Shown: positions 45,936-64,000, counted from the first letter of the stretch. The stretch: 64,000 bases of DNA from Candidatus Buchananbacteria bacterium (GCA_014729025.1 WJKP01000011.1:6500-70499); one strand, 5' to 3'. Program-made: numbers and translations. Notes: generated by a model not told the origin, from the letters alone.

Positions 45936-45954
45936 CAAGAACTTTTTATCGAGG

Positions 45955-45978
45955 AAGACCCGAGTGGGTCTTTTTTGA
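45955..45978 (+). terminator. Rho-independent terminator after tRNA-Gln
   Basis: AAGACCC-GAGT-GGGTCTT followed by TTTTTT. Confidence 0.75.
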
Positions 45979-46073
45979 TTTTTATTCAAATTGACTCTAA
46001 GCTATAATAAGGGTAAAATATAAGTAATTTAAGTAGCCCCAAAGGGGCCCCTTCGGGGCTAAAATTAAAATTT

Positions 46074-46652
46074 ATGAAAAAATTAACTCTTTTATTCTGT
46101 GCTTTATTAATTACTGTAATTTTTAGTGGTTGTACTAAAAAAGTGGAGCAAACCGAAGAAGGGACAAAAATAACAGAAGATAAAATCGTTACTGATGATG
46201 TAAGTTATGTAACCGACGATACAGAGGTCACCATACGAAGAAATAAGGTTACGAAACAAGCTTCTATTGAAATGGTATATAAAATAGCTGATGAGGATGA
46301 GTATGATGATTTTATGGGTGAACAAATGACTATGGTTCCGTTTTTAGTTAATACATCTTGTTCATTATTCACTACAGCGATTTTTGACCCAGATGCTTTT
46401 GCTGAATGGGAAGAAGATGAACAAGCTCAAAAGGATGATCAAATGGATAGTTATTTGGAAGGCTATAATACAAATAAAATTACAATAAAATTTGTTGACG
46501 CTGAAACGAATGATAAAATTGCTAATTGTGAATCAACTAAAGCTGGATTAGAAAATATTAAATTTGATATATTCAAGGACTATAGCGATGTTTCATCTCT
46601 TTTTGGGATTAAAATCGGTGAATACGATGATGAAGAATCCTCTCAAGAATAA
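46074..46652 (+). CDS. Lipoprotein (hypothetical)
   Basis: Signal peptide with lipobox 'IFSGC'. Acidic mature domain. Confidence 0.5.
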   Translation: MKKLTLLFCALLITVIFSGCTKKVEQTEEGTKITEDKIVTDDVSYVTDDTEVTIRRNKVTKQASIEMVYKIADEDEYDDFMGEQMTMVPFLVNTSCSLFTTAIFDPDAFAEWEEDEQAQKDDQMDSYLEGYNTNKITIKFVDAETNDKIANCESTKAGLENIKFDIFKDYSDVSSLFGIKIGEYDDEESSQE

Positions 46653-46671
46653 TTAGTTTAAATAATTTTTT

Positions 46672-49539
46672 ATGGATAAAAAGAAAATTATCTTAAATAC
46701 TCCTCAAGTTGAATTAGAACAAACTAAATTAAAAAAGAAACTTCAAGAATTAGTTAATAAATTCAAAGCCGAGGATGGTTGGTCAAAGTCTGAAGAGCAT
46801 ATTCAGACTAGTTTTACAGTTGAATTATTAAAAATACTGGGCTGGGATAGTTCTAACTGGATAATTAATACTGGGCAGGAAGTTAAAACAGGCAAAAAGC
46901 CAGATGTTATTATAAAATCAGATACAGGTGCAAAACTTTTAGTAATTGAATCAAAAGAAGCTTCTAATAAAGATAAATTGGATGGTTCTTATGGTAATAA
47001 AAAATTTACAGACCAACTGTTTAACTATTGCCATGGAGAAGGTTTGTCTTGGGGTGTCTTAACTAATTTTATTGAATGGCGTTTATACAGTGTTCACCAT
47101 GGTAGATTATACAAAGAACGAAAATACGCTTTCCATGAATTATTATGGAATAATGCTGAACAAAAATATTATATTGATTTATTATCAGAAGACGGAGTAA
47201 ATTTTTTAATGCAATTATCAAAATCAGAATTAACTAGAAAAAACGGAATTATTGATTCTGATCCTATTTATTATCCTGAGCAATTAGATCTTGAACAAGA
47301 TAAGATTAAAAAGGACTTTTTTAATAAAATCAAGGATTGGCGAGCTAGTTTGAAAAAATTTATTGCTAAAAATTATGCTAATTATGAAGTTGATAAAATA
47401 GATTTAATGGCTCAAAAGATAATCGACCGTATGATTTTTATTGACCTTTGCCATGACAAAAAAATATTAAGTTCAAATTATCTGGGTTCTGTTTTAGAAT
47501 CAAAACAATTAAAATATGAGGAGCTTAAGAATGTATTCAGTTCAATGGATGAAAAATTCAATACAGAACTTTTTGCTCATAATGATGCTGATGAACTAAA
47601 AATCAGTGATGACATTATTGTTAAAATTATCAAAGAGTTGGATGAGATTGATTTTAGTAAATTGAGTGTCCATATTATCGGTGAAGTTTATGAAAATTAC
47701 TTAGGTGAACTTTTACGTTCTAATGCCAGAAAAGAAGATACAATTAAACAAAAACAAAAATCCAAAAGGAAATCTCAAGGTATTTATTATACTCCAGCAT
47801 ATATTGTTGATTACATTGTTAAAAACACTGTTGGTGAATTATTAAAAAAATGCAAAACAGTTGAAGATATTGAAAAAGTAAAAGTATTAGACCCAGCATG
47901 CGGTTCAGGCTCATTTTTAATACGTGCCTTTGATGAATTTCATAACGCTTATTTGGAAAAACAAAAAGAAGGTGGCTTGTTTGGGTTTAATATTAGAAAA
48001 AAGATTTTACAAAAAAATCTTTTTGGTGTTGACCTTGATCCTAAGGCAATTGAAATTACAAAACTTAATTTAATGATTAAAGCCTTGGAAGGTGTTAACC
48101 CAAATGAATTAAAAGGAAAACATCTTTTACCGAATTTGAATTTAAACATTCGTTGTGGTAATTCATTGGTTGGTGGCGAGAAGCTTAAAGAAAAAGAGCA
48201 GAATCTTAATCTGTTTGATGATTATGAGACAGAAATCTCTAAATTAACGGAATTTAAAGAGAAATTTTATAAAGCCGAATTTAATGATGATAAGAAGCAA
48301 TTATTGGATGAAATTAATAAATTTGAAGCATTGATTAATGGAAAATTAAATGAGGGTCTGAAACAATATTTTAAAAATTTAGATAAAATAAAACCTTTTA
48401 ATTATTCAGTGGCTTTTTGTGAAATATTTAAAACTAGTGGTTTTGATGCTGTAATTGGTAATCCGCCGTATGGAGCAGAATTAAACCAAGATGAAAAGAA
48501 TTTTTATACTGAAAATTATAATATTGGCTCAACTGATACAGCTATTTTATTCATTAAAAATTCATATGACCTTATTAAGGATAATAGTAGATTTAGCTTT
48601 ATAGTTCCTAAAGCCTTTAGCTTCGCTTCTAACTATAAAAAAATCAGAAATTTTGTTTGGGATAATATTATTCAAATTATAGATTGCCGTAAAGTATGGA
48701 AAGAAGTTAAGTTAGAACAACTGGTCTTTGTTATCGATAAAAATAAAAAATCAACAAAATATTTATCCGCTAATTTTAAAAATCGACAATTAAATATTTT
48801 GGGAGAAATAAATAAAAAAGATGCAAAAGAATTTGGATTCTTTTTAAATAGTGTTACACCCGAAGAAGTTGAAATAGCTAAGAACATAAAAGATAATTCA
48901 ATAATGCTGAATGATATCGCAATTAATAGACGAGGCGCGATTTTACAAAAACATGTAACAGATAAAGGCGATTTGAAAGTTTTAGGCGGTGCCCAAATTC
49001 AAAAGTTTGGGGTAAGTGGGATTAAGGGGCAAATTGATAAGAATAAAATTAACTCAGATCAAGCTTATATCAAACCGAATTCCGTTCTAGCTCAAAATAT
49101 AGTTGCTCATATTGAAAATCCGAGTGATCATATAAAAATAATTGCTTGCGTTCCGGATAAAAATGACTTTATAATACTGGATACTATAAATCAAATAACC
49201 CTACAAAAAGAATATTTCCCTTATTTTGTTTGGGCAATATTAAATTCCAATTTATTAAACTGGTATGCTTATAGATTTATTTTTGGTAAGGCAATAAGGA
49301 CTATGCATTTTGATAACGCTGTTACGGCAAGATTGCCTATTCCTAAAGCAACTAAAGAACGACAAGAGGGTATTATTAAGAAAGCGAAAGAATTAATTAA
49401 ATTAAATAAGACTTCTGAATCACATGATAAAAATGCTGATAAGATAAGGGCAATTGATTATGAGATTGAAAAGGATTTGTGTAAGCTTTATGGTTTGAGA
49501 CTTGAAGATATTAATATTATAGAGAAAGTGAAAATATGA
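46672..49539 (+). CDS. Type IIG/IIL restriction-modification enzyme (MmeI/Eco57I-like fused endonuclease-methyltransferase-TRD)
   Basis: N-terminal PD-(D/E)xK-like 'KPDVIIKSDTGAKLLVIESKEASNK'. MTase motif I 'VLDPACGSGSFL'. Motif IV 'VIGNPPYGAE' (gamma-class N6-adenine MTase). 955 aa with C-terminal target-recognition region. Confidence 0.8.
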   Translation: MDKKKIILNTPQVELEQTKLKKKLQELVNKFKAEDGWSKSEEHIQTSFTVELLKILGWDSSNWIINTGQEVKTGKKPDVIIKSDTGAKLLVIESKEASNKDKLDGSYGNKKFTDQLFNYCHGEGLSWGVLTNFIEWRLYSVHHGRLYKERKYAFHELLWNNAEQKYYIDLLSEDGVNFLMQLSKSELTRKNGIIDSDPIYYPEQLDLEQDKIKKDFFNKIKDWRASLKKFIAKNYANYEVDKIDLMAQKIIDRMIFIDLCHDKKILSSNYLGSVLESKQLKYEELKNVFSSMDEKFNTELFAHNDADELKISDDIIVKIIKELDEIDFSKLSVHIIGEVYENYLGELLRSNARKEDTIKQKQKSKRKSQGIYYTPAYIVDYIVKNTVGELLKKCKTVEDIEKVKVLDPACGSGSFLIRAFDEFHNAYLEKQKEGGLFGFNIRKKILQKNLFGVDLDPKAIEITKLNLMIKALEGVNPNELKGKHLLPNLNLNIRCGNSLVGGEKLKEKEQNLNLFDDYETEISKLTEFKEKFYKAEFNDDKKQLLDEINKFEALINGKLNEGLKQYFKNLDKIKPFNYSVAFCEIFKTSGFDAVIGNPPYGAELNQDEKNFYTENYNIGSTDTAILFIKNSYDLIKDNSRFSFIVPKAFSFASNYKKIRNFVWDNIIQIIDCRKVWKEVKLEQLVFVIDKNKKSTKYLSANFKNRQLNILGEINKKDAKEFGFFLNSVTPEEVEIAKNIKDNSIMLNDIAINRRGAILQKHVTDKGDLKVLGGAQIQKFGVSGIKGQIDKNKINSDQAYIKPNSVLAQNIVAHIENPSDHIKIIACVPDKNDFIILDTINQITLQKEYFPYFVWAILNSNLLNWYAYRFIFGKAIRTMHFDNAVTARLPIPKATKERQEGIIKKAKELIKLNKTSESHDKNADKIRAIDYEIEKDLCKLYGLRLEDINIIEKVKI

Positions 49540-50294
49540 GCGTGATCACAAATTTTTTCATACAACAGAAAGAATGGATATTGCCATTAGTGGGTGCATT
49601 TGGAGGTGCTTTTTTCGCTTTTTGTTTTTTTATTTTAGGTGAACGTTGGAGATTGAAGAAAGAATGGCGCAAGAAGGTAATAAATGAGCATGCTTACTTA
49701 GATAGATATCTACAATTCATTAGGATCACCTTAGATAAAAATATTAAAAAATTTAATCTAATAAAAAATCATTATAAGGAGAAACAATTATCTCTAGTTA
49801 GACTTGTTAATTTCCCTATACGGGAAGATGCCTCCATGAGATTGAAGGATATGGATTACCTAAATAATGTGGAGAATTTTATTAATAGGTTAAAAGAGTT
49901 AAACTTAGATATTATAACATTTAATACTTTTATTAATGATATAAATGATGATATAAAAAATTTCATTATAGATAAGCAAAGAAAAGATTTGCAATCAATA
50001 ATAAGTACAAGTATAAATTTATTCTTGGAAGATAGTGACACAATAATAAATTTCCAAAAAATGTTAAAGGATGACTTGGACTTATTGTATGCTCAAAATA
50101 TGGTTTTATATGATTATTATAAATCGAATATTTTTAAAAAAATGCTATGGAATATAAATAAAAAAATAAACAAAGATTTTATGGAAAGTAAAGTTAATTT
50201 AAGAATGGATGAATTTGTTCAGGAAATCGAAAAATCAGTTACAAAAAATAAAGAAAAATTAGAAAAATATAATATTATTAAAAAGGAGCTTTAA
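49536..50294 (+). CDS. Hypothetical protein (N-terminal TM), translationally coupled to the Type IIG gene
   Basis: ATGA overlap with the upstream stop. 252 aa, Lys/Asn-rich. Confidence 0.4.
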   Translation: MSVITNFFIQQKEWILPLVGAFGGAFFAFCFFILGERWRLKKEWRKKVINEHAYLDRYLQFIRITLDKNIKKFNLIKNHYKEKQLSLVRLVNFPIREDASMRLKDMDYLNNVENFINRLKELNLDIITFNTFINDINDDIKNFIIDKQRKDLQSIISTSINLFLEDSDTIINFQKMLKDDLDLLYAQNMVLYDYYKSNIFKKMLWNINKKINKDFMESKVNLRMDEFVQEIEKSVTKNKEKLEKYNIIKKEL

Positions 50295-50298
50295 TAAT

Positions 50299-50991
50299 AT
50301 GCCTCCAAAAAAGATAAAACAAGAAGAAGTTGATAGAGCACTTCTAATACTTACAGATACTATTAGGAAATTAAATGATTATTTAAATACCTATGCCGAT
50401 GATTCAGCTAGTGATTTGTTTAATAAAATGTCTGAAGCAAGAAAGCAAGTTGATATAATTGCAAATGAAGCTCGGTTACTTTTTCAGGATTGTTTAAAGA
50501 GGTATGTTGAAAGCGAAGATGTACCTGAACCGACTGTAAAATGGGACAAAGATGAATACGGGAACTTACTTAAGATTAATGGTTATAAAAATCGACCACC
50601 ATGTGAAATTTGCAGAGAATCCAGGAAGGTCGAGTATTGTCATATAATCCCTAGACAAATAGGTGGATCTAATAGAGAAACAAATATTATTTATTTATGT
50701 TCAACCCATCATAGCTGTTTTGATAAGGGTGTTTTATCAAAACAAGAATGGGGTTCAATTGACTGGAAAGGAAGAAGTGAGCTGGTAAAATCTTTCGTGA
50801 ATGAGGTTTTGTTATCTAGACAGCAAGCATATTGGGATGGTGATAAAGTTGTTGCAGATATTGTTTATCATTCTTATAAGCCACTTACCGAGTGGGTCAA
50901 GAAACATCTTGGATGTAATTCAACAGATGAATGGAATAAGAAACGCAAGAGTGTTAAAATGATTAGAAGTGGAAACGCGTATTTAGGATAA
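50299..50991 (+). CDS. HNH endonuclease domain protein
   Basis: 'CEICRESRKVEYCHIIPRQIGGSNRETNIIYLCSTHHSCFDKG' gives the HNH CxxC...H...N...CxxHH signature. Confidence 0.7.
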   Translation: MPPKKIKQEEVDRALLILTDTIRKLNDYLNTYADDSASDLFNKMSEARKQVDIIANEARLLFQDCLKRYVESEDVPEPTVKWDKDEYGNLLKINGYKNRPPCEICRESRKVEYCHIIPRQIGGSNRETNIIYLCSTHHSCFDKGVLSKQEWGSIDWKGRSELVKSFVNEVLLSRQQAYWDGDKVVADIVYHSYKPLTEWVKKHLGCNSTDEWNKKRKSVKMIRSGNAYLG

Positions 50992-52299
50992 TTTTATCAG
51001 TTTATTAGCTAAAGCTACTTTGCTCCTCATACAACTCAATAATTCTCTTTTCTCAATAACCGTACCCTCGGTTAATATATACTTGGCATAATTTTTTACA
51101 TTTAGATTCTTGAGCTTTTTATCGTCCAGCTTCACGCCAAGTATTTTTTGTTGAAAATTACTAAACCTTTTCATCTCTTGTTCATATTTATGGGTTATTC
51201 CTAACTTATCTATGCTGATTTTATCAATTATATCCAGTAGCTGACTTACTAAGCTATCCTCATTAATATAGCCACATTTACAATTTATATCCTTAGCTCT
51301 TGTACATCCATAGTAAATGTATTTTTTTGTTGTCCCATCACTAAGTTTCTTATGCTTTTCCTCGGCAGATATACCAGAGCCACATAATCCGCAAGTCATT
51401 AAACGAGTGAATGCGAATTCTTTTAGGGCACCTCTTTTAATATGGTCTCTAGTTAATTGTTGTTGTACCTGATCAAATAGTTCTTGAGTGATTAAAGGCT
51501 GATGCTTACCAGCATACCAATTACCACTTTCTTTTGGGTATTCAAAGGTTCCCGTGTAAAATGGTGTTTTTAATATTCTTAACACATTACTTAACGCTAA
51601 AGGTTTACCACTAATAGTTTTGAAATCAATTTCGCGAAGCCACATGTATACTTTTCTACCACTCCATTTCTCTGTGGCAACTTTTTCAAACATTTGCTTA
51701 ACAATTGGTCCTCGTTTAGGATCTACAATAACTTCACATTTACGGTCAATTCTTTTTTCATTAAGATAGCCTGTTGGGGCTGTGGCTGGCCACAGCCCCA
51801 TTTCAACTCTGGTTCTCAGTCCGCGTTTTACATTAATCCCTCTGTTATCATTTTCCAGTTTAGCCTGACTACCTAAAATCATCAGTAGAAATTTTTCATT
51901 TGGTGAATTTGTGAAGCATTGGCTATATGTCTTTATTTCTACTAACAGCTTTTTATCCATAAGATCTACTATTTCTCCAAGATCTCCTGCATTACGGCTT
52001 AATCGATCAGGAGCCCATGTCAGAATACCATTGTATTTACCAGCGTTAACGTCTTTTAAGATTTCTCTAAACACGGGACGCTCCCCAGATTTTTTCGCCG
52101 AATGGCTTTCGCGTTTGATATTAACGACATTTAATTTTTCCTTATCAGCTACTCTTAGCATTTCCTTAATCTGAGAATCTATTGATAAAGCTTGTCGTTC
52201 CTCAGACTCCGTTGATTTTCTGGCATACAAACAATAATTGATTGTTTGTGTTTGTACTGCTTGGTTTGCTGATTCTAGTGTTTGCGTGTTTTGTTGCAT
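50983..52299 (-). CDS. Large serine recombinase (resolvase/integrase family)
   Basis: N-terminal catalytic domain 'YCLYARKSTESEERQALSIDSQ' (Ser nucleophile context) ...'DRLSRN'. Central recombinase domain. Zinc-ribbon 'CGLCGSG...YYGCTRAKDINCKCG'. 438 aa. Confidence 0.85.
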   Translation of the reverse strand: MQQNTQTLESANQAVQTQTINYCLYARKSTESEERQALSIDSQIKEMLRVADKEKLNVVNIKRESHSAKKSGERPVFREILKDVNAGKYNGILTWAPDRLSRNAGDLGEIVDLMDKKLLVEIKTYSQCFTNSPNEKFLLMILGSQAKLENDNRGINVKRGLRTRVEMGLWPATAPTGYLNEKRIDRKCEVIVDPKRGPIVKQMFEKVATEKWSGRKVYMWLREIDFKTISGKPLALSNVLRILKTPFYTGTFEYPKESGNWYAGKHQPLITQELFDQVQQQLTRDHIKRGALKEFAFTRLMTCGLCGSGISAEEKHKKLSDGTTKKYIYYGCTRAKDINCKCGYINEDSLVSQLLDIIDKISIDKLGITHKYEQEMKRFSNFQQKILGVKLDDKKLKNLNVKNYAKYILTEGTVIEKRELLSCMRSKVALANKLIKLS

Positions 52300-52303
52300 A
52301 TAA

Positions 52304-52341
52304 TTCCTTATTAATAGTTAATTACTCTCTACTATAAGGAA
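52304..52341 (+). repeat. Imperfect inverted repeat immediately upstream of the serine recombinase gene (candidate att core or operator)
   Basis: TTCCTTATTAATAG-N11-CTACTATAAGGAA. The arms are near reverse complements. Confidence 0.4.
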
Positions 52342-52395
52342 TGACGCAACCTTGCTAGGGAGTCCAGGCTGGTTAGTAGGCAAACTGTAGATAAC

Positions 52396-53940: not shown

Positions 53941-53951
53941 ATTTTTTAAAG

Positions 53952-54347: not shown

Positions 54348-54353
54348 ATAATT

Positions 54354-55780: not shown

Positions 55781-55800
55781 TTAAGCCATGTATGGCTTAA
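55781..55800 (+). promoter_or_regulatory. Perfect palindrome in the divergent intergenic region (candidate operator)
   Basis: TTAAGCCAT-GT-ATGGCTTAA: 9-bp perfect arms with a 2-nt centre. Confidence 0.4.
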
Positions 55801-56057
55801 ACTGTTTCTTTCCCTTACGGGAAACTGTATTAAACTTTGTACTCTTTTATAAAGACTGTTTGCTATGGTTCTTGTAGAACCTAGTAATAGTATACCAAAT
55901 AGCCCTTTTTTATGTCAAGTTTTTCATTATAATAAGTAGATAAATTGTAGATTAAAACGCTTTACTTAAGCTTAAAAATATATTATAGTATTAACAAATT
56001 GAATATATGTATATAGACCTAAACCATTTGTATTTTACAGTTGGCATGGTCTCAAAA

Positions 56058-56165
56058 ACCTAACACATAAAGACGGCTTCATTGTCGGTCCTATGTGTTA
56101 GGTCCATACTCGAAAGGGTGTGGTGATACTCGCAAGAGTATCTCCGACGTGGAGCCTTTTTTGTT
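56058..56165 (+). ncRNA. Structured GC-enriched intergenic element (candidate small RNA or 5' leader) upstream of the GmrSD-like gene
   Basis: Perfect 12-bp inverted repeat ACCTAACACATA-N22-TATGTGTTAGGT. GNRA-tetraloop hairpin GATACTC-GCAA-GAGTATC. Short hairpin plus TTTTTTG at 56142-56163. Local GC is well above background. Confidence 0.3.
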
Positions 56166-56188
56166 TAAATAAAATTATAATATAAAAT

Positions 56189-58369
56189 ATGAAATTAAAA
56201 ACGCTTGTATCAAAAGAAATTAAAAGTTTAATGGGTGATCAAAATAGTTTTTATTATATCCCTGATTATCAGCGCCCTTATTCTTGGGAAACAGATAATA
56301 TTACAGATTTCTGGGAAGATATCAGCAAGGCGTATGACAATAAAGACGAGAATTATTTTCTCGGTTCTTTTATTTTAATAGAAAATGATGATCATAAAGG
56401 CTTTGAAGTAGTTGACGGTCAACAGCGTTTAACAACCATTACTTTGTTTTTAGCGGTTTTACGTGATATGTTTGCTGATAATAATAGAATGGATTTAGCT
56501 GAAAAGATCCAAAATGAATTCATTAAAAAAGAAAATCGTTTTCGCCTTTACGCCCGTTCAGAAGACAAATTAGCATTTGAAAATAATATATTAAATGATA
56601 TCAATAGTTTAGCTAATTATAATGGCAGTAAAATTAGAAAACAGTTTAAAAATACTATTGCTGTTTTTCATAATCTAATAGCCATGAGAAGTTCAGAAAT
56701 GAATGTCAGTACTGAAAAATTTATGGATTATCTGGCATCTATTTATGAATATTTGATGTCCAATGTTTTTGTGATTATTGTGGTTACTGAAGATATTGCT
56801 TCAGCTTATACGATTTTTGAAACAATTAATCAAAGAGGTAAAGAATTACGAACAGAAGATCTTTTAAAAAATTTCTTATTAAAAAAATTATTGGATGAAA
56901 TTAACAAGCATAACAATGAAAGTCCTAATTCACAGAAAAATTTTGATAAAGAAAAATTATCACTACTTTCTGTTTGGCAAAGGATTGAAGATACCAATAT
57001 CGGCATGGAGTCTTTGTTGAATTATCATCGTACGGCTATTTTAGGAACTAACCCCAAAAAAGATTTATTTAAAGAAATTACAAACTATATCAGAGATAAA
57101 AATATTACACCTTATGAATTTATGTCTGATTGGGATAAAACAGTGGATGCTTATTTATCTTTATATCAGGGAGATTTTTATAATCAGCTTAATGATAAAA
57201 CCAAAAAGATTCTTAGTTTATTATGGGAAATAAATCATAATCACTGGATACCTGTTTTAATAAGTGCTCGTAGAGCCAATTTACCAAAGGAGGATTTTCA
57301 AGAATTGGTTTTTGTTTTAGAAAGAATGTATGCCTTATTTTGGATAGCCGGCTATAATGCCGTTAAAATTAAATATCCAAGCTGGTATATTATCAGAGAA
57401 TTGATTAGTAAAAATAAAAGTTTGGATGATATTAAAGATTATATTGAAAAAATACTAGTTCAAAATCGTGTATACAACAGGTTCTATGAATCTTTAGAAC
57501 ATGATTGTTATGGCAATTCATGGTGTAAATATATTTTGGCTAAATATGAATATTCACTGGTTGATGATTCGGTAATTAAAAAAGTAAAATTTGATTCAAC
57601 TGTTCAAATTGAACATATCTTACCTCAAACAATGTCAGCCAAATATTGGAAGGAAAATTTTACCGAGGATGAACATGATAAGCTTGTAAGTACTTTGGGG
57701 AATTTAACATTACTAATTGGCGGGATTAAAGAAAAGAAAAAATCTAAGAATCAATCAGCTGCTAATAAACCGTTTGATGAGAAAATTAAAGTTTATATGG
57801 GCGAAGCCTTAAAAGACGGATTTAGTGCTTTTCAAATGACTCAGGATTTATCTAAATATGATGATTGGACTCCGAGTGTAATTAGAAAAAGAGGTAAAGC
57901 CATAATTAATAAATTGGAACAGTTGTGGGAAGTTTCCAGAGATAATGTTTCTAATCAATCAGAGGAAGATGAAGACGAGGATGAAGTTCAATCTGAAGGT
58001 GGTAGAAATAGTTTTTCATTAGAACCTGGTCAGTATAATAACATTGTTTTAAAAAAGAAATTAATTGATACTTTAAATATTGAAAGTGCGGTTATTCCTC
58101 GTTTAAAGGTTTTTTTGCAAATACTGGCAAGTGAAAATAAAGTTTTTAATAGAGAAGAAATCAAAGAGAAATTGCATCAGCACGGTATTGGTGATAATAT
58201 AGGAAAAACAGGACGATACTTAAGTAATATCTCTCAATTTTTAACCAAACGTAATAATTCCCATCTTCGGCAAGTGGTGAATTTTCAAACAGGTGGTGAA
58301 ATGGGAGAATTAAAAAATAATTATTCTCTTAATGAGAAGTATCGTGAATTAGTTAAAGAAGTATTATAG
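56189..58369 (+). CDS. GmrSD-like Type IV restriction/defence enzyme (DUF262 ParB-like NTPase domain plus DUF1524 HNH-like nuclease domain) with extra C-terminal domain
   Basis: DUF262 motifs 'YYIPDYQRPYSWE' and 'VVDGQQRLTTITLFL'. DUF1524 'QIEHILPQTMS'. Acidic linker 'EEDEDEDEVQSEGG', then a 140-aa extra domain. Confidence 0.8.
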   Translation: MKLKTLVSKEIKSLMGDQNSFYYIPDYQRPYSWETDNITDFWEDISKAYDNKDENYFLGSFILIENDDHKGFEVVDGQQRLTTITLFLAVLRDMFADNNRMDLAEKIQNEFIKKENRFRLYARSEDKLAFENNILNDINSLANYNGSKIRKQFKNTIAVFHNLIAMRSSEMNVSTEKFMDYLASIYEYLMSNVFVIIVVTEDIASAYTIFETINQRGKELRTEDLLKNFLLKKLLDEINKHNNESPNSQKNFDKEKLSLLSVWQRIEDTNIGMESLLNYHRTAILGTNPKKDLFKEITNYIRDKNITPYEFMSDWDKTVDAYLSLYQGDFYNQLNDKTKKILSLLWEINHNHWIPVLISARRANLPKEDFQELVFVLERMYALFWIAGYNAVKIKYPSWYIIRELISKNKSLDDIKDYIEKILVQNRVYNRFYESLEHDCYGNSWCKYILAKYEYSLVDDSVIKKVKFDSTVQIEHILPQTMSAKYWKENFTEDEHDKLVSTLGNLTLLIGGIKEKKKSKNQSAANKPFDEKIKVYMGEALKDGFSAFQMTQDLSKYDDWTPSVIRKRGKAIINKLEQLWEVSRDNVSNQSEEDEDEDEVQSEGGRNSFSLEPGQYNNIVLKKKLIDTLNIESAVIPRLKVFLQILASENKVFNREEIKEKLHQHGIGDNIGKTGRYLSNISQFLTKRNNSHLRQVVNFQTGGEMGELKNNYSLNEKYRELVKEVL

Positions 58370-58418
58370 AAAAATATTTTATAACCTCATTTTTTAAATA
58401 TTCAATAATATTAAATTT

Positions 58419-58856: not shown

Positions 58857-58860
58857 AAGC

Positions 58861-60327
58861 ATGATTTCAAAATCTCAATTTTTAAAATACATTCAATGTT
58901 ATAAATATCTTTGGTTATATAAATTCAGACGTGAATTATTACCTGAAGAAGTTGACGCCTCATTGCAGCGTATTTTTGATGAAGGTTATGAAATTGAAGA
59001 TTATGCTAAAAAGTTATTTCCTAAGGGAGTTGAAGTCGAAGGCTTATATGATAAAGCAGAAAAACACACTAAAAAATTAATCAAAGAAGGTAATAAATTA
59101 TTATTCCAAGCTACTGCCATGGCTAATAAATTATATTGTATGGCAGATATTTTTTCTTATAATCCCAAAACAAAAAAATGGGATATTTACGAAGTTAAAA
59201 GTTCAACTAAATTAAAAGATATTCATATTATTGATTTGGCTTTTCAGAAAACATGTTTTGAAGGAGCCGGTTATGAAATTGGTAAACTGCATTTAGTCCA
59301 TGTTAATAATCAATATGTACGTAAAGGTAAGATTGACCCTAAGAAATTGTTAAAAATAGAAGATTTAACTAGTGAAGTAAAAAATGTTATTAGTGGTGTC
59401 CATCTTGATATTGAAAATGCTTTAGAATTGATTACTAAAAAAGATGAACCTCAAGTTAAAATTTTAAAACAATGCAAAAACCCTTTTGGATGTAATTTTA
59501 TTGGTTATTGTTGGAAAGATATCCCTGAACATTCAATTTATAATATCGCCGGTAGCTTAACTGAGAAAAAATTAAATGAATTATTAGATCAAGGGATTAT
59601 CATGATAAAAGATATTCCTGATGATTATTTAACCAAACATAAATCAATTTTGCATCATAATGTTATAAAGCAGAATAAGATTCATATAGAAAAAGAAAAC
59701 ATTAAGTCTGAATTGAGTAAATTAAAATACCCATTATATTTTCTTGATTATGAAACATTCAGTCCAGCTATTCCTATGTTTGACGGTTATAAACCTTATC
59801 AAAGAATTGTTTTTCAGTTTTCTTTACATGTTCAAGAATCTAAAGGAGCTAAATTAAAACATTATGAGTTTTTAGCTAAAGACAAAAAAGACCCGACTAA
59901 TGATTTGTTGAAAGCCTTAAAAAGCTTTGTTAAAGGTATCGGTACATTTATTGCTTGGAATGATGTTTTTGAAAAAGGTTGTAATAGAGAAATGGCCAGA
60001 CGTGCACCCAAATATTCCGATTTTTTACAGGAAATTAATAATTCAATGTATGACCTGATGATGATATTTCGTAATGGTTATTATGTACACAAAAATTTTC
60101 ATGGCAGTGCTTCAATTAAAAAAGTTTTACCGGTAATAGTACCTAAATTATCTTATAAAGATTTAGAAATACAAGAAGGCGGTACTGCTTCTCAAAGCTG
60201 GTTAACTTTGATTGATGAATCAGTTAAAAAATCTGAACGTAATAAGTTAGCCACGGATATGCTTAAGTACTGTGAGCTGGATACTTTTGCTATGGTTGAG
60301 ATATTGAGGAAGTTGAAAGAAATATGA
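58861..60327 (+). CDS. DUF2779-like protein (RecB/Cas4-like PD-(D/E)xK nuclease N-domain plus RNase-H-like C-domain)
   Basis: N-terminal 'ISKSQFLKYIQCYKYLWL'. Cys cluster 'CKNPFGCNFIGYCW'. C-terminal 'YFLDYETFSPAIPMFDGYKPYQRIVFQFSLHV'. Family recall from memory. Confidence 0.45.
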   Translation: MISKSQFLKYIQCYKYLWLYKFRRELLPEEVDASLQRIFDEGYEIEDYAKKLFPKGVEVEGLYDKAEKHTKKLIKEGNKLLFQATAMANKLYCMADIFSYNPKTKKWDIYEVKSSTKLKDIHIIDLAFQKTCFEGAGYEIGKLHLVHVNNQYVRKGKIDPKKLLKIEDLTSEVKNVISGVHLDIENALELITKKDEPQVKILKQCKNPFGCNFIGYCWKDIPEHSIYNIAGSLTEKKLNELLDQGIIMIKDIPDDYLTKHKSILHHNVIKQNKIHIEKENIKSELSKLKYPLYFLDYETFSPAIPMFDGYKPYQRIVFQFSLHVQESKGAKLKHYEFLAKDKKDPTNDLLKALKSFVKGIGTFIAWNDVFEKGCNREMARRAPKYSDFLQEINNSMYDLMMIFRNGYYVHKNFHGSASIKKVLPVIVPKLSYKDLEIQEGGTASQSWLTLIDESVKKSERNKLATDMLKYCELDTFAMVEILRKLKEI

Positions 60328-60436
60328 AATATTATTCATAGCTCATAAAATTACTGGCTGGATGCCAGTTTTTTTATCTTGATTAAACAGCCTGAAAGTG
60401 GTAAGTTTTAACTATAAATATCTAAATTAGACACTT

Positions 60437-62536
60437 ATGTGGGTTAAAGAAAAACTAGAGAATCTAAATTATTTATTAAAGAATAGATTTGTTATTTTTA
60501 TTCTCTTTTTTATGTTGTTTATTTTAACTTCATTTTTATCATCAGGATCATTTCTGCCAAGTACGGAAACAAAAGATCTTTGGTTTTATTCTGGATTGTT
60601 TATGCTTTGTTTTTCAATTCTTTTTATTGAGCCATACTATACTTCACCTAAGAATGTAATTACTAATGTAGTTCCTCTAATATTAGTTTTTTTATCGATA
60701 AAAGATGTTTTTGTAAATATTATTTTTTGGTGGTTTGCTGTAATTATTTTTTTATTTCTCTTAATGATTTCTATTATAGCCATTGCTATAGAGGATAAGA
60801 ACAAAAGCCCTGAACACATTACAAATAAAATAGCTGATTTTTTGAAAAACATAGCGATTTTGATTGGTACAGGAAAGGTTCTTTATTCAGCAGTATTTAT
60901 TTATTTCCTTTTAACTTATTATTCAATCCAAAATTTTTATACTATATTATTATTCATCTTTTGGTTTTTTATAATAATAATAGACACTAAAAAAATACAT
61001 AACAAATTTTTAATAAGAGAAATAAAGGTTAATAACAACCAAATCGGGGAAATTTTTGGAGTTCAATCAAAAAAAATTTTTTTAGTTAAATTATTTGAAG
61101 ATAAAAAGAATGTAACCAAATTTGATATTGTTAAATTTAAATATTCGATGCAAGATACTAAAGACTTAGTAATTACTGGTATAATTTTTGACACCTATTT
61201 ATTAAATCAGGAAAAGTGGGCAAAAATATTACAGCTAAAAAATCCTCGAAAAGAGGATTTGAAGTTTAAAATGGATGAGAACTTCGTATATAAAGTATCC
61301 GATGAAGAAGAAATACAAAAAATTAGTTCTGAGATACGTGTTAAGGATTTTATTGGGGTAGTTATCGAAGGATCTAATATTGGCAAAATTAAATTCGAGT
61401 ATTCCAAAATGAAAGAAGATTTACAAATGGATGATTTAATTGAATTGGAGATTGGCAGTAAAAAATTGTATTATCAGGTGATTACTGGCACCACGCAAAA
61501 AGAAAAACTTGAAGCAAGGAATGAAATGGGATATATAGAAGGTGAGGCAATTCAATTGGGTGAATGGAGTGAAGAATTGTTATCTTTCCAAAAATTTGGA
61601 TGGGTTCCTTCTATTAACACCCCCATTTTTAAAGCAAACACAAATGAATTAACTACTAATGATTTTGCATATCCTCTTTATAAATTAGGTGTTATCCCAG
61701 GGACTTCGTTACCTTCAGTTATAAATTTAAGTGAAGCCGTTAGTCACCATATGGCATTACTTGGAGTTACAGGTGCTGGCAAATCATTTATTGCAAGAGA
61801 AATTATAAAACAACTAAAAAATGATACAAAAATTATCTGCATAGATTTAACGGGAGAATGGAAAGTTGAATTATCGGAACTTTCCCCAAAACAACTTATA
61901 GATTCTTCTGGGTTAGGTGAGGTAGAAGAAATAATTGCCAAAAAAGAAACAGCCACAAAAAATAAAAATTCAGAAGAAGTATTAAAATATAAAAAACAAA
62001 TTCAGGAAAAACTCAATATATATATTAAGGCTTTTGCTGATTCTGAGGACAATTTATCTATATTTGAATTGCCTGATTTATCAAATACTTCTTTTATTTT
62101 AGAATTTACTCAAATGTTTTTAGATAGTTTATTTCTTTATGCTAAATCAAATCAAGGAAATAAATTTTGTATTGTTTTAGAAGAAGCTCATACAATTATA
62201 CCTGAAACATCATTTCTTGGCGATTTAGGAGATTATTCAGCTAATAAAGGATTAGTAAGTAAAATGGGACAAATTGCATTGCAGGGTCGTAAATATGGCG
62301 TTGGATTTTTAGTTATAGCTCAAAGAACCGCCAATGTTTCAAAAACAGTATTAACACAATGTAATACCGTTGTGTGCTTTCAAGCATTTGATGAGACCAG
62401 TTTTTCTTTTTTGCAAAATTATGTGGGTAAAGATATGGTTCATGCTTTGCCAAATTTAAAGCAATACCATGCAATAGTTGCTGGAAAATCAATAAAATCT
62501 AATATGCCCATGATAGTTGACTTATCAAGAAATTAA
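60437..62536 (+). CDS. Membrane-anchored HerA/FtsK-like (DUF87-type) P-loop ATPase
   Basis: About 6 TM helices in the first 190 aa. Walker A 'LLGVTGAGKSFIAREI'. Walker B 'CIVLEEAHTIIPE'. Arginine-finger region 'ALQGRKYGVGFLVIAQR'. Confidence 0.65.
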   Translation: MWVKEKLENLNYLLKNRFVIFILFFMLFILTSFLSSGSFLPSTETKDLWFYSGLFMLCFSILFIEPYYTSPKNVITNVVPLILVFLSIKDVFVNIIFWWFAVIIFLFLLMISIIAIAIEDKNKSPEHITNKIADFLKNIAILIGTGKVLYSAVFIYFLLTYYSIQNFYTILLFIFWFFIIIIDTKKIHNKFLIREIKVNNNQIGEIFGVQSKKIFLVKLFEDKKNVTKFDIVKFKYSMQDTKDLVITGIIFDTYLLNQEKWAKILQLKNPRKEDLKFKMDENFVYKVSDEEEIQKISSEIRVKDFIGVVIEGSNIGKIKFEYSKMKEDLQMDDLIELEIGSKKLYYQVITGTTQKEKLEARNEMGYIEGEAIQLGEWSEELLSFQKFGWVPSINTPIFKANTNELTTNDFAYPLYKLGVIPGTSLPSVINLSEAVSHHMALLGVTGAGKSFIAREIIKQLKNDTKIICIDLTGEWKVELSELSPKQLIDSSGLGEVEEIIAKKETATKNKNSEEVLKYKKQIQEKLNIYIKAFADSEDNLSIFELPDLSNTSFILEFTQMFLDSLFLYAKSNQGNKFCIVLEEAHTIIPETSFLGDLGDYSANKGLVSKMGQIALQGRKYGVGFLVIAQRTANVSKTVLTQCNTVVCFQAFDETSFSFLQNYVGKDMVHALPNLKQYHAIVAGKSIKSNMPMIVDLSRN

Positions 62537-62553
62537 AAATATTAAAATTATTT

Positions 62554-63939
62554 ATGAAGCAAAGGGACGCCTTAAATATTTTAAAATTAGGATACAACGT
62601 TTTTTTAACAGGTGCCGCAGGTAGCGGTAAAACTTTTTTATTAAACAAATATATTAAATATTTAAGAAAAAATGATATAGCTGTTGCTATAACAGCGTCA
62701 ACTGGTATTGCTGCAACTCACATGAATGGGAGGACTATTCATTCATGGTGTGGAATGGGTATAAATTTAAAAATGAATAAATCCCAAATTAATGAGATTG
62801 TAAATAAAGATTATATTTATGATAATATCCTGAATACAAAAGTATTGATTATCGATGAAGTATCTATGCTTCATTCTTCTCAATTGGATTTAGTAGATAA
62901 AATTTGCAAAACAATTAAAAATAATGACGAACCTTTTGGTGGAATACAAGTTATATTATGCGGTGATTTTTTTCAATTACCTCCAGTTTCGAAAGAAAGT
63001 GATACAAGTGAATATGCATTTGAATCGGATATTTGGAATAATATGGATTTAAAAGTTTGTTATCTAACAGAACAATATCGTCAAAATGATAAAGATTTCT
63101 TAGGAATTTTAAAAAAAATAAGAGAAAACTCTGTGGATCAGGATGTGAAAAATAAGTTAATAAAAAGAATTAACGCCAAGGCAAAAAGTAAATTACATAT
63201 TACAAAATTATATTCTCATAATATCGACGTTGATAGGATAAATCACAACGAACTTAAAAAGATAAAAGGTAAAGAAATTGTTTATGAGATGCACTCCGAA
63301 GGGATTAGGACAATGGTTGATTCTTTAAAAAAATCCTGTCTAGCACCTGAAAGATTAACTATCAAAAAAGGAGCTATTATAATGTTTGTTAAAAATAATT
63401 TTAGAGAAGGATATGTTAATGGCACTCTTGGAGAAATTATTGATTTTGATGAGGATACTAATTACCCAATAGTAAAAACTATTTCAGATGATATTATTCA
63501 TGTTGTACCTGCAACTTGGTGCGTAGAGGAAAATAATAAAATTCTAGCTGAGATAACGCAACTACCTATACGTCTTGCTTGGGCGATTACAATACATAAA
63601 AGCCAAGGTATTAGTCTCGATTTTGCTGAAATTGATTTAAGTAAATCATTTTTATGTGGAATGGGATATGTCGCTTTATCAAGAGTTAAATCATTATCAG
63701 GTTTATTATTAAAAGGAATTAATGATATGGCTTTGAAAGTTGATGATGATTTATTACAAGTAGATAAGGATTTAATAAAAAGATCAATTTTAGATCTTAA
63801 AGCTTTCAAAGCATTATCTAAAAAAACATTAAAACAAAAACAAAATAAATTCATCGAAGATAATGCTGAACCAGAAGAAGAAATTGAAGTCGATGACGAT
63901 GATAATTATGAGGTTAGATTAGAAGATATACCATTTTAA
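62554..63939 (+). CDS. PIF1/RecD-like superfamily 1 DNA helicase
   Basis: 'NVFLTGAAGSGKTFLL'. 'ITASTGIAATHMNGRTIHSW'. 'LIIDEVSMLHS'. 'ILCGDFFQLPPV'. C-terminal 'LAWAITIHKSQGIS'. Acidic C-terminal tail. Confidence 0.8.
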   Translation: MKQRDALNILKLGYNVFLTGAAGSGKTFLLNKYIKYLRKNDIAVAITASTGIAATHMNGRTIHSWCGMGINLKMNKSQINEIVNKDYIYDNILNTKVLIIDEVSMLHSSQLDLVDKICKTIKNNDEPFGGIQVILCGDFFQLPPVSKESDTSEYAFESDIWNNMDLKVCYLTEQYRQNDKDFLGILKKIRENSVDQDVKNKLIKRINAKAKSKLHITKLYSHNIDVDRINHNELKKIKGKEIVYEMHSEGIRTMVDSLKKSCLAPERLTIKKGAIIMFVKNNFREGYVNGTLGEIIDFDEDTNYPIVKTISDDIIHVVPATWCVEENNKILAEITQLPIRLAWAITIHKSQGISLDFAEIDLSKSFLCGMGYVALSRVKSLSGLLLKGINDMALKVDDDLLQVDKDLIKRSILDLKAFKALSKKTLKQKQNKFIEDNAEPEEEIEVDDDDNYEVRLEDIPF

Positions 63940-64000
63940 ATCGTATGTTCACACATCTCCAACCTAAACAATATTACATTGACCGCTATGACCGTCTTAC

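What the first reader, a model, noticed from the sequence alone, without database searches (positions are those of the whole stretch)
45936..64000. tRNA-Gln-adjacent island combining prophage remnants (serine recombinase, TerL/TerS-like, ParB-methylase) with a dense set of defence genes (Type IIG RM, HNH, GmrSD-like, nucleases, HerA-like ATPase plus PIF1 helicase)
Seen in sequence: the island starts immediately after the tRNA-Gln terminator. It has mixed strand orientation, which is atypical for this window. Each gene carries diagnostic motifs (NPPY and PD-ExK in the 955-aa fusion; HNH; resolvase Ser plus zinc ribbon; DPPY plus ParB; DUF262 DGQQR plus DUF1524). Inference: it is an integrated mobile element doubling as a defence island. 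It may be two juxtaposed elements, one ending at the inverted repeat at 52304-52341 beside the recombinase start. The right boundary lies beyond the window.
Basis: partly seen in the sequence, partly recalled or inferred. Interest (0 to 1): 0.55.

Follow-up and report, generated by a model that had tools for sequence, protein, structure and literature searches.

The report
Terminase-carrying tRNA island of Patescibacteria
The stretch after tRNA-Gln is one integrated mobile element from a widespread, apparently undescribed family in ultra-small (CPR) bacteria: a conserved methylase, small and large terminase and serine-integrase core with no capsid genes, which carries swappable anti-phage genes and an orphan structured RNA (LOOT).

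Summary

The "prophage remnant" reading does not hold. The co-directional block ParB-methylase, TerS, TerL and large serine recombinase (LSR) recurs in the same order in about 100 independent Patescibacteria loci. All four genes are under strong purifying selection (dN/dS 0.01-0.12), and no portal or capsid genes lie nearby.

- **Position:** the LSR end usually faces the 3' end of a tRNA gene, of eight different kinds.
- **Left end:** a conserved roughly 25-nt terminal motif abuts five different tRNAs, including the window's.
- **Size:** two relatives are bounded by direct repeats, at 14.5 and 17.3 kb.
- **Cargo:** it sits in three slots and is dominated by restriction-modification and other defence genes.
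- **LOOT RNA (RF03000):** found at 56016-56142. It heads the antisense cargo operon in 27 element loci and is absent from 1.36 Mb of controls.
- **Right end:** beyond the window.
- **PIF1:** probably a core host helicase rather than cargo.

Best reading: a phage-satellite-like, tRNA-targeting defence island. That it packages its own DNA into a helper phage's capsids is inferred, not shown.

The parts
45861..45935 (+). tRNA-Gln(CTG), the chromosomal integration target. The dnaX-tRNA-Gln linkage is conserved across Patescibacteria.
45936..45972 (-). Element terminal (att-like) motif, read on the minus strand as CTCGGGTCTTCCTCGATAAAAAGTTCTTG, directly abutting the tRNA 3' end. The same motif abuts tRNA-Ser, Arg, Asp and Glu in relatives whose LSRs are 59-64% identical. 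It overlaps a palindrome that looks like a terminator.
   Evidence: absent from 19 control tRNA-Gln flanks
46074..46652 (+). Cargo slot 2 (between the tRNA-proximal end and the LSR): predicted lipoprotein of 192 aa with a signal peptide and FSGC lipobox. No family match.
46672..49539 (+). Cargo: Type IIG restriction-modification fusion, 955 aa.
49536..50294 (+). Cargo: unknown 252-aa protein with an N-terminal membrane helix. Its start overlaps the IIG stop codon.
   Evidence: no matches
50299..50991 (+). Cargo: HNH endonuclease, 230 aa. Its 3' end overlaps the LSR 3' end by 9 bp (convergent).
50983..52299 (-). Core gene 4: large serine recombinase, 438 aa. Closest solved relative is the SPbeta integrase YokA/SprA.
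52300..52395 (-). Conserved LSR leader region and the (here empty) cargo slot 1. It holds two RGTTAYCWAC repeats (52395-52376), box A CTGGACT (52367-52361), box B TTGCGTCAT (52349-52341) and the imperfect inverted repeat (52340-52305), which covers the LSR ribosome-binding site.
52396..53940 (-). Core gene 3: terminase large subunit, 514 aa. Walker A/B and nuclease acidic residues are invariant across the family.
53952..54347 (-). Core gene 2: TerS-like HTH protein, 131 aa.
54354..55679 (-). Core gene 1: ParB_N-N6/N4 DNA methyltransferase, 441 aa.
55889..55989 (.). Divergent promoter-like sites. On the minus strand, TTGACA-18-TATACT (11/12) faces the core operon. On the plus strand, TTTACT-17-TATAGT lies 27 nt before LOOT.
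   Evidence: consensus matches only
56016..56165 (+). LOOT RNA (RF03000, 79.6 bits against a gathering score of 46.4) plus a conserved U-rich 3' tail. It heads the antisense cargo operon 47 nt before GmrSD.
56189..58369 (+). Distal-arm cargo: GmrSD-type (DUF262 + DUF1524) nuclease, 726 aa, with a roughly 150-aa C-terminal extension.
   Evidence: the same LOOT-to-GmrSD arrangement occurs in L097 and L156
58419..58856 (+). Distal-arm cargo: small PD-(D/E)XK-like protein, 145 aa. Weak call.
58861..60327 (+). Distal-arm cargo: Cas4-like N-terminus plus a DUF2779 protein, 488 aa. Recurs as cargo in 6 family loci.
60437..62536 (+). Distal-arm cargo: membrane-anchored DUF87/HerA-like ATPase, 699 aa. 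Homologs 60-70% identical occur across phyla, nested in type I RM operons.
62554..63939 (+). PIF1 helicase, 461 aa. Membership in the element is uncertain and it is probably a core Patescibacteria gene. In L089 the homolog sits just outside the element's distal repeat.

Best explanation
Window 45936 to at least 62536 (or beyond 64000) is one integrated copy of a Patescibacteria-wide family of tRNA-targeting mobile islands.

**Anatomy of the family**
- Core: a co-directional block of DNA methyltransferase(s), a TerS-like protein, TerL and a large serine recombinase (LSR).
- Position: the LSR end faces the 3' end of a tRNA gene.
- Cargo: three slots, namely tRNA end to LSR, TerL to LSR, and distal to the methylase. 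They hold exchangeable genes, mostly anti-phage.
- RNA: the antisense cargo operon is often headed by a LOOT RNA.

**Steps shown by the evidence**
- The core is conserved and under purifying selection.
- No capsid, portal or tail genes are present.
- The tRNA adjacency and a conserved terminal motif.
- Direct-repeat boundaries in two relatives.
- Cargo swapping at fixed junctions.
- The same element in unrelated chromosomal backgrounds.

**Steps inferred**
- The LSR integrates and excises the island at the tRNA 3' flank.
- On infection by a helper phage, the island's own TerS/TerL cut and package island DNA into the helper's procapsids, a satellite life style.
- The methylase pre-protects the transferred DNA.
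- The cargo, with LOOT as a leader or regulatory RNA, protects the host and so the island.
For: **Core order and conservation**
- The order is conserved in about 100 loci: TerL 106, TerS 101, MTase 99, LSR 67. No other protein cluster is found in more than 13 loci.
- 40 of 46 loci with at least 4 kb after TerL carry the LSR.
- dN/dS is 0.01-0.12 for all four genes.
- Walker A/B and nuclease residues are invariant in 29 TerLs.

**No structural genes**
- 242 ORFs that follow TerL in ordinary phage loci find no structural homolog in the family loci, apart from one borderline contig.
- The repeat-bounded L089 element holds XRE + ImmA-like regulators, a DGR and an Ltp lipoprotein, but nothing structural.

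**tRNA adjacency and ends**
- An opposite-strand tRNA follows the LSR in 26 loci, and the gap is 143-222 bp in 10 of them.
- The terminal motif is shared by the window and by four relatives that sit at different tRNAs. It is absent from the controls.
- Direct repeats: L091, 30 nt at 100% identity followed by a degenerate tRNA 3' fragment, giving 17.3 kb. L089, 190 bp at 86% identity, giving 14.5 kb.

**Mobility and cargo exchange**
- L104 and L105 share 82% nucleotide identity only from the MTase to the tRNA, with unrelated flanks.
- L129 and L127 swap cargo exactly between TerL and the LSR.
- Cargo is dominated by RM types I, IIG and III, SNF2-PLD, CBASS and DGR.

**LOOT**
- 27 hits in 1.27 Mb of family sequence against 0 in 1.36 Mb of controls, always at the 5' end of the cargo.

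**Host context**
- None of the island genes follows dnaX-tRNA-Gln in 80 other genomes.
Against: - No replication module was recognised in the core, unlike most satellites.
- No excised or circular form was found, and there is no particle-fraction evidence.
- No helper phage is known.
- Only one end is visible in the window, so this copy could be truncated or immobile.
- Long identity segments at att sites (30-190 bp) are unusual for serine recombinases. SCCmec has flanking repeats of about 18 bp (from my own knowledge).
- Distal repeats were found in only 2 of about 24 testable loci.
- The literature search covers open-access papers only, so prior description cannot be excluded.
Confidence: 0.6

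Rival explanations
1. First reader's view. The block is a decayed prophage (integrase, terminase and methylase left over after the structural genes were deleted) that happens to sit in a tRNA-linked defence island. It has no function of its own.
For: - Gene identities are phage-like.
- The closest ordinary phages, at 25-35% TerL identity, have TerL followed by portal-like genes.
Against: - The same four genes in the same order recur in about 100 loci with dN/dS of 0.12 or less.
- Independent deletions would not converge on the same junctions.
- The elements are bounded by repeats at 14.5 and 17.3 kb.
Confidence: 0.07
2. The methylase-TerS-TerL block is itself a defence or interference module. 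For example, it could cut or mis-package the DNA of an infecting phage, or protect self DNA by methylation. The LSR-mobilised island merely carries it, and the terminase does not serve the island's own transfer.
For: - It is always embedded among defence genes.
- No replication genes are present.
- Known satellites interfere with helper packaging (PICI literature; for the tycheposon discussion).
Against: - No such terminase-based defence system is in PADLOC (no hit for the MTase beyond generic MTase models).
- Strict linkage with an integrase and with tRNA-side ends fits a transfer function.
- The two roles are not mutually exclusive.
Confidence: 0.2
3. In-situ packaging platform. TerS/TerL start headful packaging from the integrated island, as in lateral transduction, and so export the adjacent tRNA-side chromosome and cargo rather than an excised island.
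For: - No replication module is present.
- Packaging would run from terS towards terL, the cargo, the LSR and the tRNA, which is the conserved orientation.
Against: - The methylase and the distal arm would not be co-transferred, yet they are conserved with the core.
- Repeat-bounded units and the same unit in different backgrounds argue for excision and integration.
Confidence: 0.08
4. Two or more separate elements are stacked at the tRNA: an RM islet, then a terminase/LSR element, then a GmrSD/HerA islet. Each arrived on its own.
For: - Tandem accretion at tRNA sites is common.
- The L089 repeat at 86% identity could be the trace of an older occupant.
- HerA-like genes roam on their own.
Against: - The family terminal motif is at the tRNA, outside the RM block.
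- The same three-slot layout recurs inside the repeat-bounded L091.
- Only one recombinase is present in the window.
Confidence: 0.05

Closest known systems
Phage-inducible chromosomal islands (PICI/SaPI) and other phage satellites (P4-like, PLE, cf-PICI, PICMI)
   Same: - Small integrated islands of about 5-20 kb with an integrase at one end.
- They carry phage-type packaging genes but not a full virion gene set.
- An XRE/ImmA-type switch occurs in some members (L089).
- They carry defence cargo.
   Different: - The integrase is a large serine recombinase, not a tyrosine integrase.
- The island carries both TerS and TerL plus a methylase, but no capsid, portal or capsid-remodelling genes. cf-PICIs carry capsid genes, and classic PICIs carry TerS only.
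- No recognisable primase or replicase module.
- The host phylum is Patescibacteria.
- It carries a LOOT RNA.
Tycheposons of Prochlorococcus (bioRxiv 10.1101/2020.12.28.424599)
   Same: - tRNA-flanking islands in streamlined genomes.
- Modular cargo next to a site-specific integrase.
- A minority use large serine recombinases.
- Some are PICI-like, with terS or a capsid gene.
   Different: - Tycheposons are defined by tyrosine recombinase and replication hallmark genes.
- PICI-like tycheposons were not seen with cargo.
- Here the hallmark genes are MTase, TerS, TerL and LSR, and the cargo is mostly defence genes.
SCCmec-type islands (CcrAB large serine recombinases)
   Same: - A large serine recombinase inserts a cargo island at the 3' end of a conserved housekeeping gene.
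- The island is flanked by short direct repeats that contain the integration site (from my own knowledge).
   Different: - The target is a tRNA 3' flank rather than rlmH.
- There is one recombinase gene, not a ccrA/ccrB pair.
- A terminase module is present.
SPbeta-type serine integrases (YokA/SprA)
   Same: Closest solved homolog of the window LSR (E=3e-14 over residues 17-398). The domain set is the same: Resolvase, Recombinase and zinc ribbon.
   Different: - SprA belongs to a complete prophage and targets a protein-coding gene.
- No recombination directionality factor was identified here.
LOOT RNA motif (Rfam RF03000; Weinberg et al. 2017, PMC5737381)
   Same: The window's 56016-56142 matches the full model at 79.6 bits.
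   Different: - Rfam lists it only as a candidate sRNA.
- Its fixed place here, at the head of cargo operons inside this element family, and its conserved 3' tail are not mentioned in the papers I could search.

Membership tests
Large serine recombinase (integrase type) | N-terminal resolvase catalytic domain with the serine nucleophile, plus a Recombinase domain and a zinc-ribbon domain | tested here: met
   - PF00239 at 80 bits, PF07508 at 58 bits and PF13408 at 32 bits, all above cut-off.
- YARKST motif.
- SPbeta YokA hit.
Terminase large subunit | N-terminal ATPase (Walker A/B) plus a C-terminal RNase-H-like nuclease | tested here: met
   - PHROG 38, E=8e-72, over residues 15-473.
- K70/S71, D172/D173/E175, D316 and D450/D451 are invariant in 29 sequences.
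- PDB TerL hits cover the ATPase part.
Complete (pro)phage | Portal, major capsid and tail genes linked to the terminase | tested here: not met
   - No such cluster in about 100 loci within 10 kb either side.
- None in the window.
- None inside the repeat-bounded L089.
PICI / SaPI | Tyrosine integrase, master repressor, pri-rep replication module, and terS or capsid-size genes, within about 10-15 kb flanked by att repeats | tested here: not met
   - The integrase is a serine recombinase.
- No primase or replicase was found in the core or the window.
- TerS is present.
- A repressor/antirepressor pair occurs only in a relative.
cf-PICI | Own capsid, portal and head-tail connector genes together with TerS/TerL | tested here: not met
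   TerS and TerL are present, but no capsid or portal genes.
Tycheposon | tRNA-adjacent, with the family's tyrosine recombinase and replication hallmark genes | tested here: not met
   The tRNA adjacency is met. The hallmark recombinase and replication genes are absent.
tRNA-targeting integrative element (generic) | Flanked by a full tRNA gene on one side and a repeat of the tRNA 3' end or flank on the other | tested here: inconclusive
   - Met in L091 (30 nt plus a tRNA-like fragment) and L089 (190 bp).
- In the window only the tRNA-side end is visible.
Type IIG restriction-modification enzyme | A single polypeptide with an N-terminal PD-(D/E)XK nuclease, a gamma-class N6-adenine methylase (NPPY) and a target-recognition domain | tested here: met
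   - PADLOC REase_MTase_IIG, E=5e-74.
- Eco57I, N6_Mtase and MmeI_Mtase domains.
- The motifs can be read directly.
GmrSD / type IV restriction | DUF262 (DGQQR NTPase) plus a DUF1524 His-Me nuclease | tested here: met
   PF03235 at 140 bits and PF07510 at 82 bits. PADLOC HEC-06, E=5e-81.
HerA-based defence systems (HerA-Sir2, HerA-DUF4297) | A HerA ATPase paired with a Sir2 or DUF4297 effector | tested here: not met
   - Only the C-terminal ATPase part matches HerA models.
- The N-terminus is a multi-pass membrane domain.
- Neighbours in other genomes are type I RM genes or PIF1, not Sir2 or DUF4297.
LOOT RNA (RF03000) | Score at or above Rfam's gathering threshold over the full model | tested here: met
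   79.6 bits against 46.4, model positions 1-121 of 121.

The most novel reading that the evidence does not exclude
These islands are the first phage-satellite lineage of the Candidate Phyla Radiation. They have no capsid genes and are self-sufficient for DNA packaging (own TerS and TerL). A family of serine integrases whose specificity has radiated over at least eight tRNA 3' flanks moves them. LOOT, an orphan RNA motif, is their dedicated regulator or leader for the exchangeable defence-gene operon.
Probability: 0.35. Interest if true: 0.85.

Novelty: new variant of a known kind. Interest (0 to 1): 0.72.

Why it matters
- **Gene exchange in CPR bacteria.** Patescibacteria have tiny genomes, few CRISPR systems and poorly understood gene exchange. 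A widespread, recognisable island family that ferries restriction, CBASS, DGR and other defence genes next to tRNA genes would explain how their defence repertoires turn over. It would also give a simple four-gene marker for finding such islands.
- **An orphan RNA.** The finding gives the LOOT RNA motif a concrete genomic setting and testable roles.
- **New integrases.** It points to a set of compact serine integrases with diverse, short, conserved target sites at tRNA flanks. These are of interest as genome-engineering tools.
- **Annotation.** 'Terminase plus integrase' in these genomes should not be read as a prophage or prophage remnant. Several of these loci are filed as viral contigs in IMG/VR.

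Tried and rejected
- **Extending the window.** The source record (TerL 100% identical to GF365_00825, Candidatus Buchananbacteria, contig of 83,332 bp) could not be fetched.
- **Single-protein scan.** A scan of the viral contigs with TerL alone found nothing. An alignment was needed.
- **Second att copy in the window.** None was found with repeats, BLAST or a motif regex.
- **Distal repeats in relatives.** Found in only 2 (perhaps 3) of 26 loci.
- **Circular contigs.** None.
- **Inverted repeat before the LSR.** RNAalifold found no shared hairpin on 10 sequences, because of indels. I therefore do not claim a conserved RNA structure there.
- **LOOT 3' tail.** The sequence is conserved, but no consensus pairing was found.
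- **HerA + PIF1 as a two-gene system.** Rejected. Close HerA-like homologs sit in type I RM operons without PIF1. A distant DUF87-PIF1 pair does exist in L253.
- **GIY-YIG insert upstream of the tRNA as an intron.** No Rfam intron hit, and the tRNA 5' half is duplicated, so it is not an intron.
- **Literature.** Searches on Patescibacteria with terminase and serine recombinase, on satellites with TerL, and on LOOT found no description of this family.

Full report
**1. What is in the window**

ARAGORN and Rfam place tRNA-Gln(CTG) at 45861-45935. Five lie on the + strand (46074-50991), four on the - strand (50983-55679) and five on the + strand (56189-63939). The strand switch shows as a GC-skew sign change at 51-56 kb, in a window otherwise almost wholly on the + strand.

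Pfam, PADLOC and PHROGs confirm the calls:
- Type IIG RM, 955 aa.
- HNH, 230 aa.
- Large serine recombinase (LSR), 438 aa, with all three diagnostic domains.
- TerL, 514 aa, PHROG 38 at E=8e-72.
- TerS-like, 131 aa.
- ParB_N-N6/N4 methylase, 441 aa.
- GmrSD, 726 aa.
- Weak PD-(D/E)XK, 145 aa.
- Cas4-like/DUF2779, 488 aa.
- Membrane DUF87/HerA-like, 699 aa.
- PIF1, 461 aa.

Two ORFs, of 192 and 252 aa, have no match.

**2. Whose genome this is**

The gene upstream of the tRNA is dnaX. Its relatives, and the 100%-identical database copies of TerL, HerA-like and PIF1, are from Patescibacteria ("Candidatus Buchananbacteria", contig of 83,332 bp).

The dnaX-tRNA-Gln(CTG) pair and the genes upstream of it are syntenic in many Patescibacteria. 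None of the island genes follows dnaX in 80 other genomes. The exceptions are a few LSR homologs, and a PIF1 that lies 1.4 kb after tRNA-Gln in L053. The region is therefore an insertion relative to the conserved backbone. No close relative (dnaX 50% identity or less) was available for a strict empty-site comparison.

**3. The "prophage remnant" is a conserved core**

TerL homologs at 42-50% identity are abundant in metagenomes. I fetched 80 metagenome loci and about 20 IMG/VR loci with 10-kb flanks.

In essentially all of them the order is the same. It runs methylase (either a ParB-MTase of about 445 aa or two MTases of about 425 and 255 aa), TerS-like, TerL, then 0-6 variable genes, then the LSR, with the core genes on one strand.

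Clustering all neighbours gives only four widespread families: TerL in 106 loci, TerS in 101, MTase in 99 and LSR in 67. Nothing else is found in more than 13 loci. Of 46 loci with at least 4 kb after TerL, 40 contain the LSR.

Portal, capsid and tail candidates, taken from ordinary phage loci (TerL 25-35% identity) where they follow TerL, find no counterpart in the family loci. The one exception is a borderline contig. The nearest deposited phage TerL is 28% identical or less.

In five closely related pairs, dN/dS of all four core genes is 0.01-0.12, with signs of module shuffling. ATPase and nuclease residues are invariant in a 29-sequence TerL alignment. These are working genes in a capsid-less unit, not debris.

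**4. Integration at tRNA genes and element ends**

With TerL oriented on the + strand, a tRNA on the - strand follows the LSR in 26 loci. The tRNAs are Gln-CTG, Gln-TTG, Ser, Arg, Glu, Tyr, Asn and Asp. In 10 loci the gap from the LSR stop codon to the tRNA 3' end is only 143-222 bp. In the others, cargo lies in between. L137, for example, has two genes of about 1,100 aa there, one of them Type IIG, much like the window.

The 25-30 nt that touch the tRNA 3' end carry a conserved motif. The window reads CTCGGGTCTTCCTCGATAAAAAGTTCTTG|tRNA on the minus strand (45936-45964). Near-identical motifs abut tRNA-Ser (L093), Arg (L091), Asp (L180) and Glu (L117), and these are the loci whose LSRs are 59-64% identical to the window's. 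Another LSR subgroup has a GGTCACC-type motif. Nineteen tRNA-Gln flanks without the element lack such motifs.

The sequence I first took for the tRNA terminator is therefore the element's own end. The RM block at 46074-50991 lies inside the element.

Two relatives show both ends:
- **L091** has a 30-nt perfect direct repeat, the motif plus TGG. At the distal copy it is followed by a degenerate tRNA 3' fragment. The element is 17.3 kb.
- **L089** has a 190-bp repeat at 86% identity that ends in the tRNA-Ser terminus. The element is 14.5 kb.

L104 and L105 share 82% nucleotide identity only from the methylase to the tRNA-Gln, in otherwise unrelated contigs. The window has only one copy of its motif, so its distal end lies past 64000 or has been lost.

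**5. Cargo slots and content**

L129, L127 and L135 are 84-88% identical across the core. They differ completely between 64 bp after the TerL stop codon and 42 bp before the LSR start codon. That is slot 1, which is empty in the window (52368-52395).

Slot 2 lies between the LSR and the tRNA-side end. In the window it holds the lipoprotein, IIG RM, the 252-aa ORF and HNH.

The third region lies distal to the methylase. In the window it holds LOOT, GmrSD, the PD-(D/E)XK-like protein, DUF2779, HerA-like, and possibly PIF1.

Ninety-four cargo ORFs from slots 1 and 2 are dominated by the following:
- ResIII helicase-nucleases.
- N6 and N4 methylases.
- Eco57I/MmeI-type IIG enzymes.
- SNF2-PLD proteins.
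- Type I HsdR.
- DGR reverse transcriptase with bAvd.
- DUF2779.
- Ltp-type exclusion lipoproteins.
- A few metabolic genes (RNR, Nramp).

The distal arms add CBASS (SMODS + SAVED), more IIG enzymes and small XRE regulators. The repeat-bounded L089 also has an XRE/ImmA-like (Peptidase_M78) pair, the classic induction switch of Firmicutes prophages, ICEs and PICIs.

**6. LOOT RNA**

Rfam finds a full-length LOOT RNA at 56016-56142 (+), at 79.6 bits against a gathering score of 46.4.

Five of 12 family loci scanned with Rfam also have one. A covariance model built from six copies finds 27 copies in 1.27 Mb of family loci. In 1.36 Mb of control loci, made up of Patescibacteria dnaX regions and ordinary phages, it finds none.

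With one exception LOOT is antisense to the core. It lies 16-104 nt upstream of the first gene of an antisense cargo operon. It is placed divergently either from the LSR or, as in the window, L097, L117, L119, L130 and L160, from the methylase. L097 and L156, like the window, have LOOT followed by a GmrSD.

A conserved tail, CTGGYGGSGGGCTTTKTGT, follows the Rfam boundary in 26 of 27 copies. Promoter-like hexamers lie back to back at 55889-55989.

The genes downstream of LOOT are unrelated to each other. LOOT therefore belongs to the element rather than to a metabolic function. A leader, attenuator or anti-terminator for the cargo transcript, or an element sRNA, are the readings I consider. None was tested.

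**7. The spacer and inverted repeat before the LSR**

The 96-bp TerL-LSR spacer in the window is made of four family-wide features: two RGTTAYCWAC repeats, box A (CTRGACT), box B (GCGKYAY), and then the inverted repeat that overlaps the ribosome-binding site.

The box A-N11-box B pattern occurs exactly once per locus, on the core strand. In most loci it lies 10-48 nt before the LSR start codon, and in a few about 157-182 nt before it. There were 40 hits in 1.35 Mb of family loci against 5 looser hits in 2 Mb of controls.

It travels with the LSR when cargo is inserted. It is therefore an LSR-linked control or binding region, not the border between two elements. I could not show a conserved RNA fold there.

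**8. HerA-like and PIF1**

The 699-aa membrane DUF87 protein has homologs 60-70% identical in Bacteroidota, Planctomycetota, Omnitrophota, Chloroflexota and Patescibacteria. In Bacteroidota these are nested between hsdS and hsdR of type I RM operons, next to integrases. It is a roaming single-gene passenger, defence-associated by context and not by test.

PIF1 has thousands of Patescibacteria homologs at 53-67% identity on chromosomal contigs. It often sits just after a tRNA, or beside a PD-(D/E)XK nuclease or a DUF87 protein. In L089 it sits 88 bp outside the element's distal repeat. It is most likely a core gene. Whether the window's element ends before it cannot be decided, because no att copy lies in the 17-bp gap.

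**9. How it most likely works**

*Shown by the evidence:* a compact, selected island with a four-gene core, tRNA-side ends and exchangeable defence cargo, present in many Patescibacteria.

*Inferred:*
- The LSR catalyses integration and excision at the tRNA 3' flank. Repeat-flanked LSR islands have a precedent in SCCmec (from my own knowledge).
- TerS and TerL recognise and package island DNA into a helper phage's procapsids.
- The methylase protects the DNA on arrival.
- The cargo, with LOOT, benefits the host.

Missing for a classical satellite are a replication module, a helper and particle evidence.

The main rival (confidence 0.2) is that the methylase-terminase block is itself an interference or defence device. 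A lateral-transduction-like role is a further variant. The remnant and stacked-elements readings are poorly supported.

**10. Comparison and novelty**

Closest in kind are PICIs and other satellites, the tycheposons of Prochlorococcus and SCCmec-type LSR islands. The element fails the defining tests of each (see the membership table).

I found no paper describing this family or LOOT's context. That search does not cover subscription journals.

I rate it a new variant of a known kind, namely satellite-like or defence-carrying integrative islands. It is of clear interest to people who work on CPR biology, phage satellites, serine integrases and orphan RNAs.

Noticed in passing
window 45413-45894: A 75-nt direct repeat (99% identical) duplicates about 40 nt of upstream sequence plus the 5' half of tRNA-Gln, up to the anticodon loop. 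Between the copies lies a frameshifted GIY-YIG nuclease gene (Pfam GIY-YIG, E=4e-15, after joining the two frames). It looks like a small insertion into the tRNA anticodon loop that brought its own replacement 5' half. It is not an intron, as there is no Rfam intron hit.
   Followed up: partly
window 18000-37400: This is the lowest-GC stretch of the window (21-30%). It encodes at least four radical-SAM enzymes, a U32 peptidase, a family-9 glycosyltransferase, a kinase-like protein and an A24-like peptidase. It may be a second acquired cluster for peptide or cell-envelope modification.
   Followed up: partly
L003 5388-6886 (Candidatus Buchananbacteria, GTDB representative): A different large serine recombinase, 39% identical to the window's, lies on the opposite strand directly after dnaX-tRNA-Gln. 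The 3' end of its ORF overlaps the tRNA gene by about 60 nt. The contig ends before one can see whether a terminase follows.
   Followed up: partly
L250-L252 (Bacteroidota) and L248: Homologs 60-67% identical to the window's membrane DUF87/HerA-like protein are inserted between hsdS and hsdR of type I RM operons next to tyrosine integrases. This suggests an unnamed accessory or stand-alone defence gene that moves between phyla.
   Followed up: partly
L253 7692-11389; L255 6671-9386; L053 11081-12714; L089 2206-4208: PIF1 helicase genes of Patescibacteria repeatedly lie just downstream of a tRNA gene and next to a nuclease or a DUF87 gene. Examples are DUF87-PIF1, PDDEXK_1-PIF1 with overlapping stop and start codons, and tRNA-Gln followed by PIF1. 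This may be a conserved helicase-nuclease repair pair that marks the far side of tRNA integration hot spots.
   Followed up: partly
L081 14400-15782; L089 11425-12810: Diversity-generating retroelement parts (a reverse transcriptase and a bAvd accessory protein) occur as cargo right after TerL in some family members.
   Followed up: no
L117 vs L160; L132 vs L159: The core shows module mosaicism. In one pair the LSR and MTase are nearly identical (dN 0.02-0.06) while TerL is very different (dN 0.35). In another pair it is the reverse. This indicates recombination between elements.
   Followed up: partly
window 56143-56165 and 26 related loci: LOOT RNAs carry a conserved 3' extension, CTGGYGGSGGGCTTTKTGT, that lies outside the 121-nt Rfam model. 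In several loci a downstream complement could enclose the U-rich stretch in a hairpin loop, but no consensus pairing was found.
   Followed up: partly
window 40069-42669: A VirD4/TraG-like coupling-protein homolog of 866 aa (DUF87, TrwB, TraG-D_C) lies in the conserved backbone upstream of dnaX. It is syntenic, at about 50% identity, in 40 other Patescibacteria loci, so it is a core gene and not part of the island.
   Followed up: no
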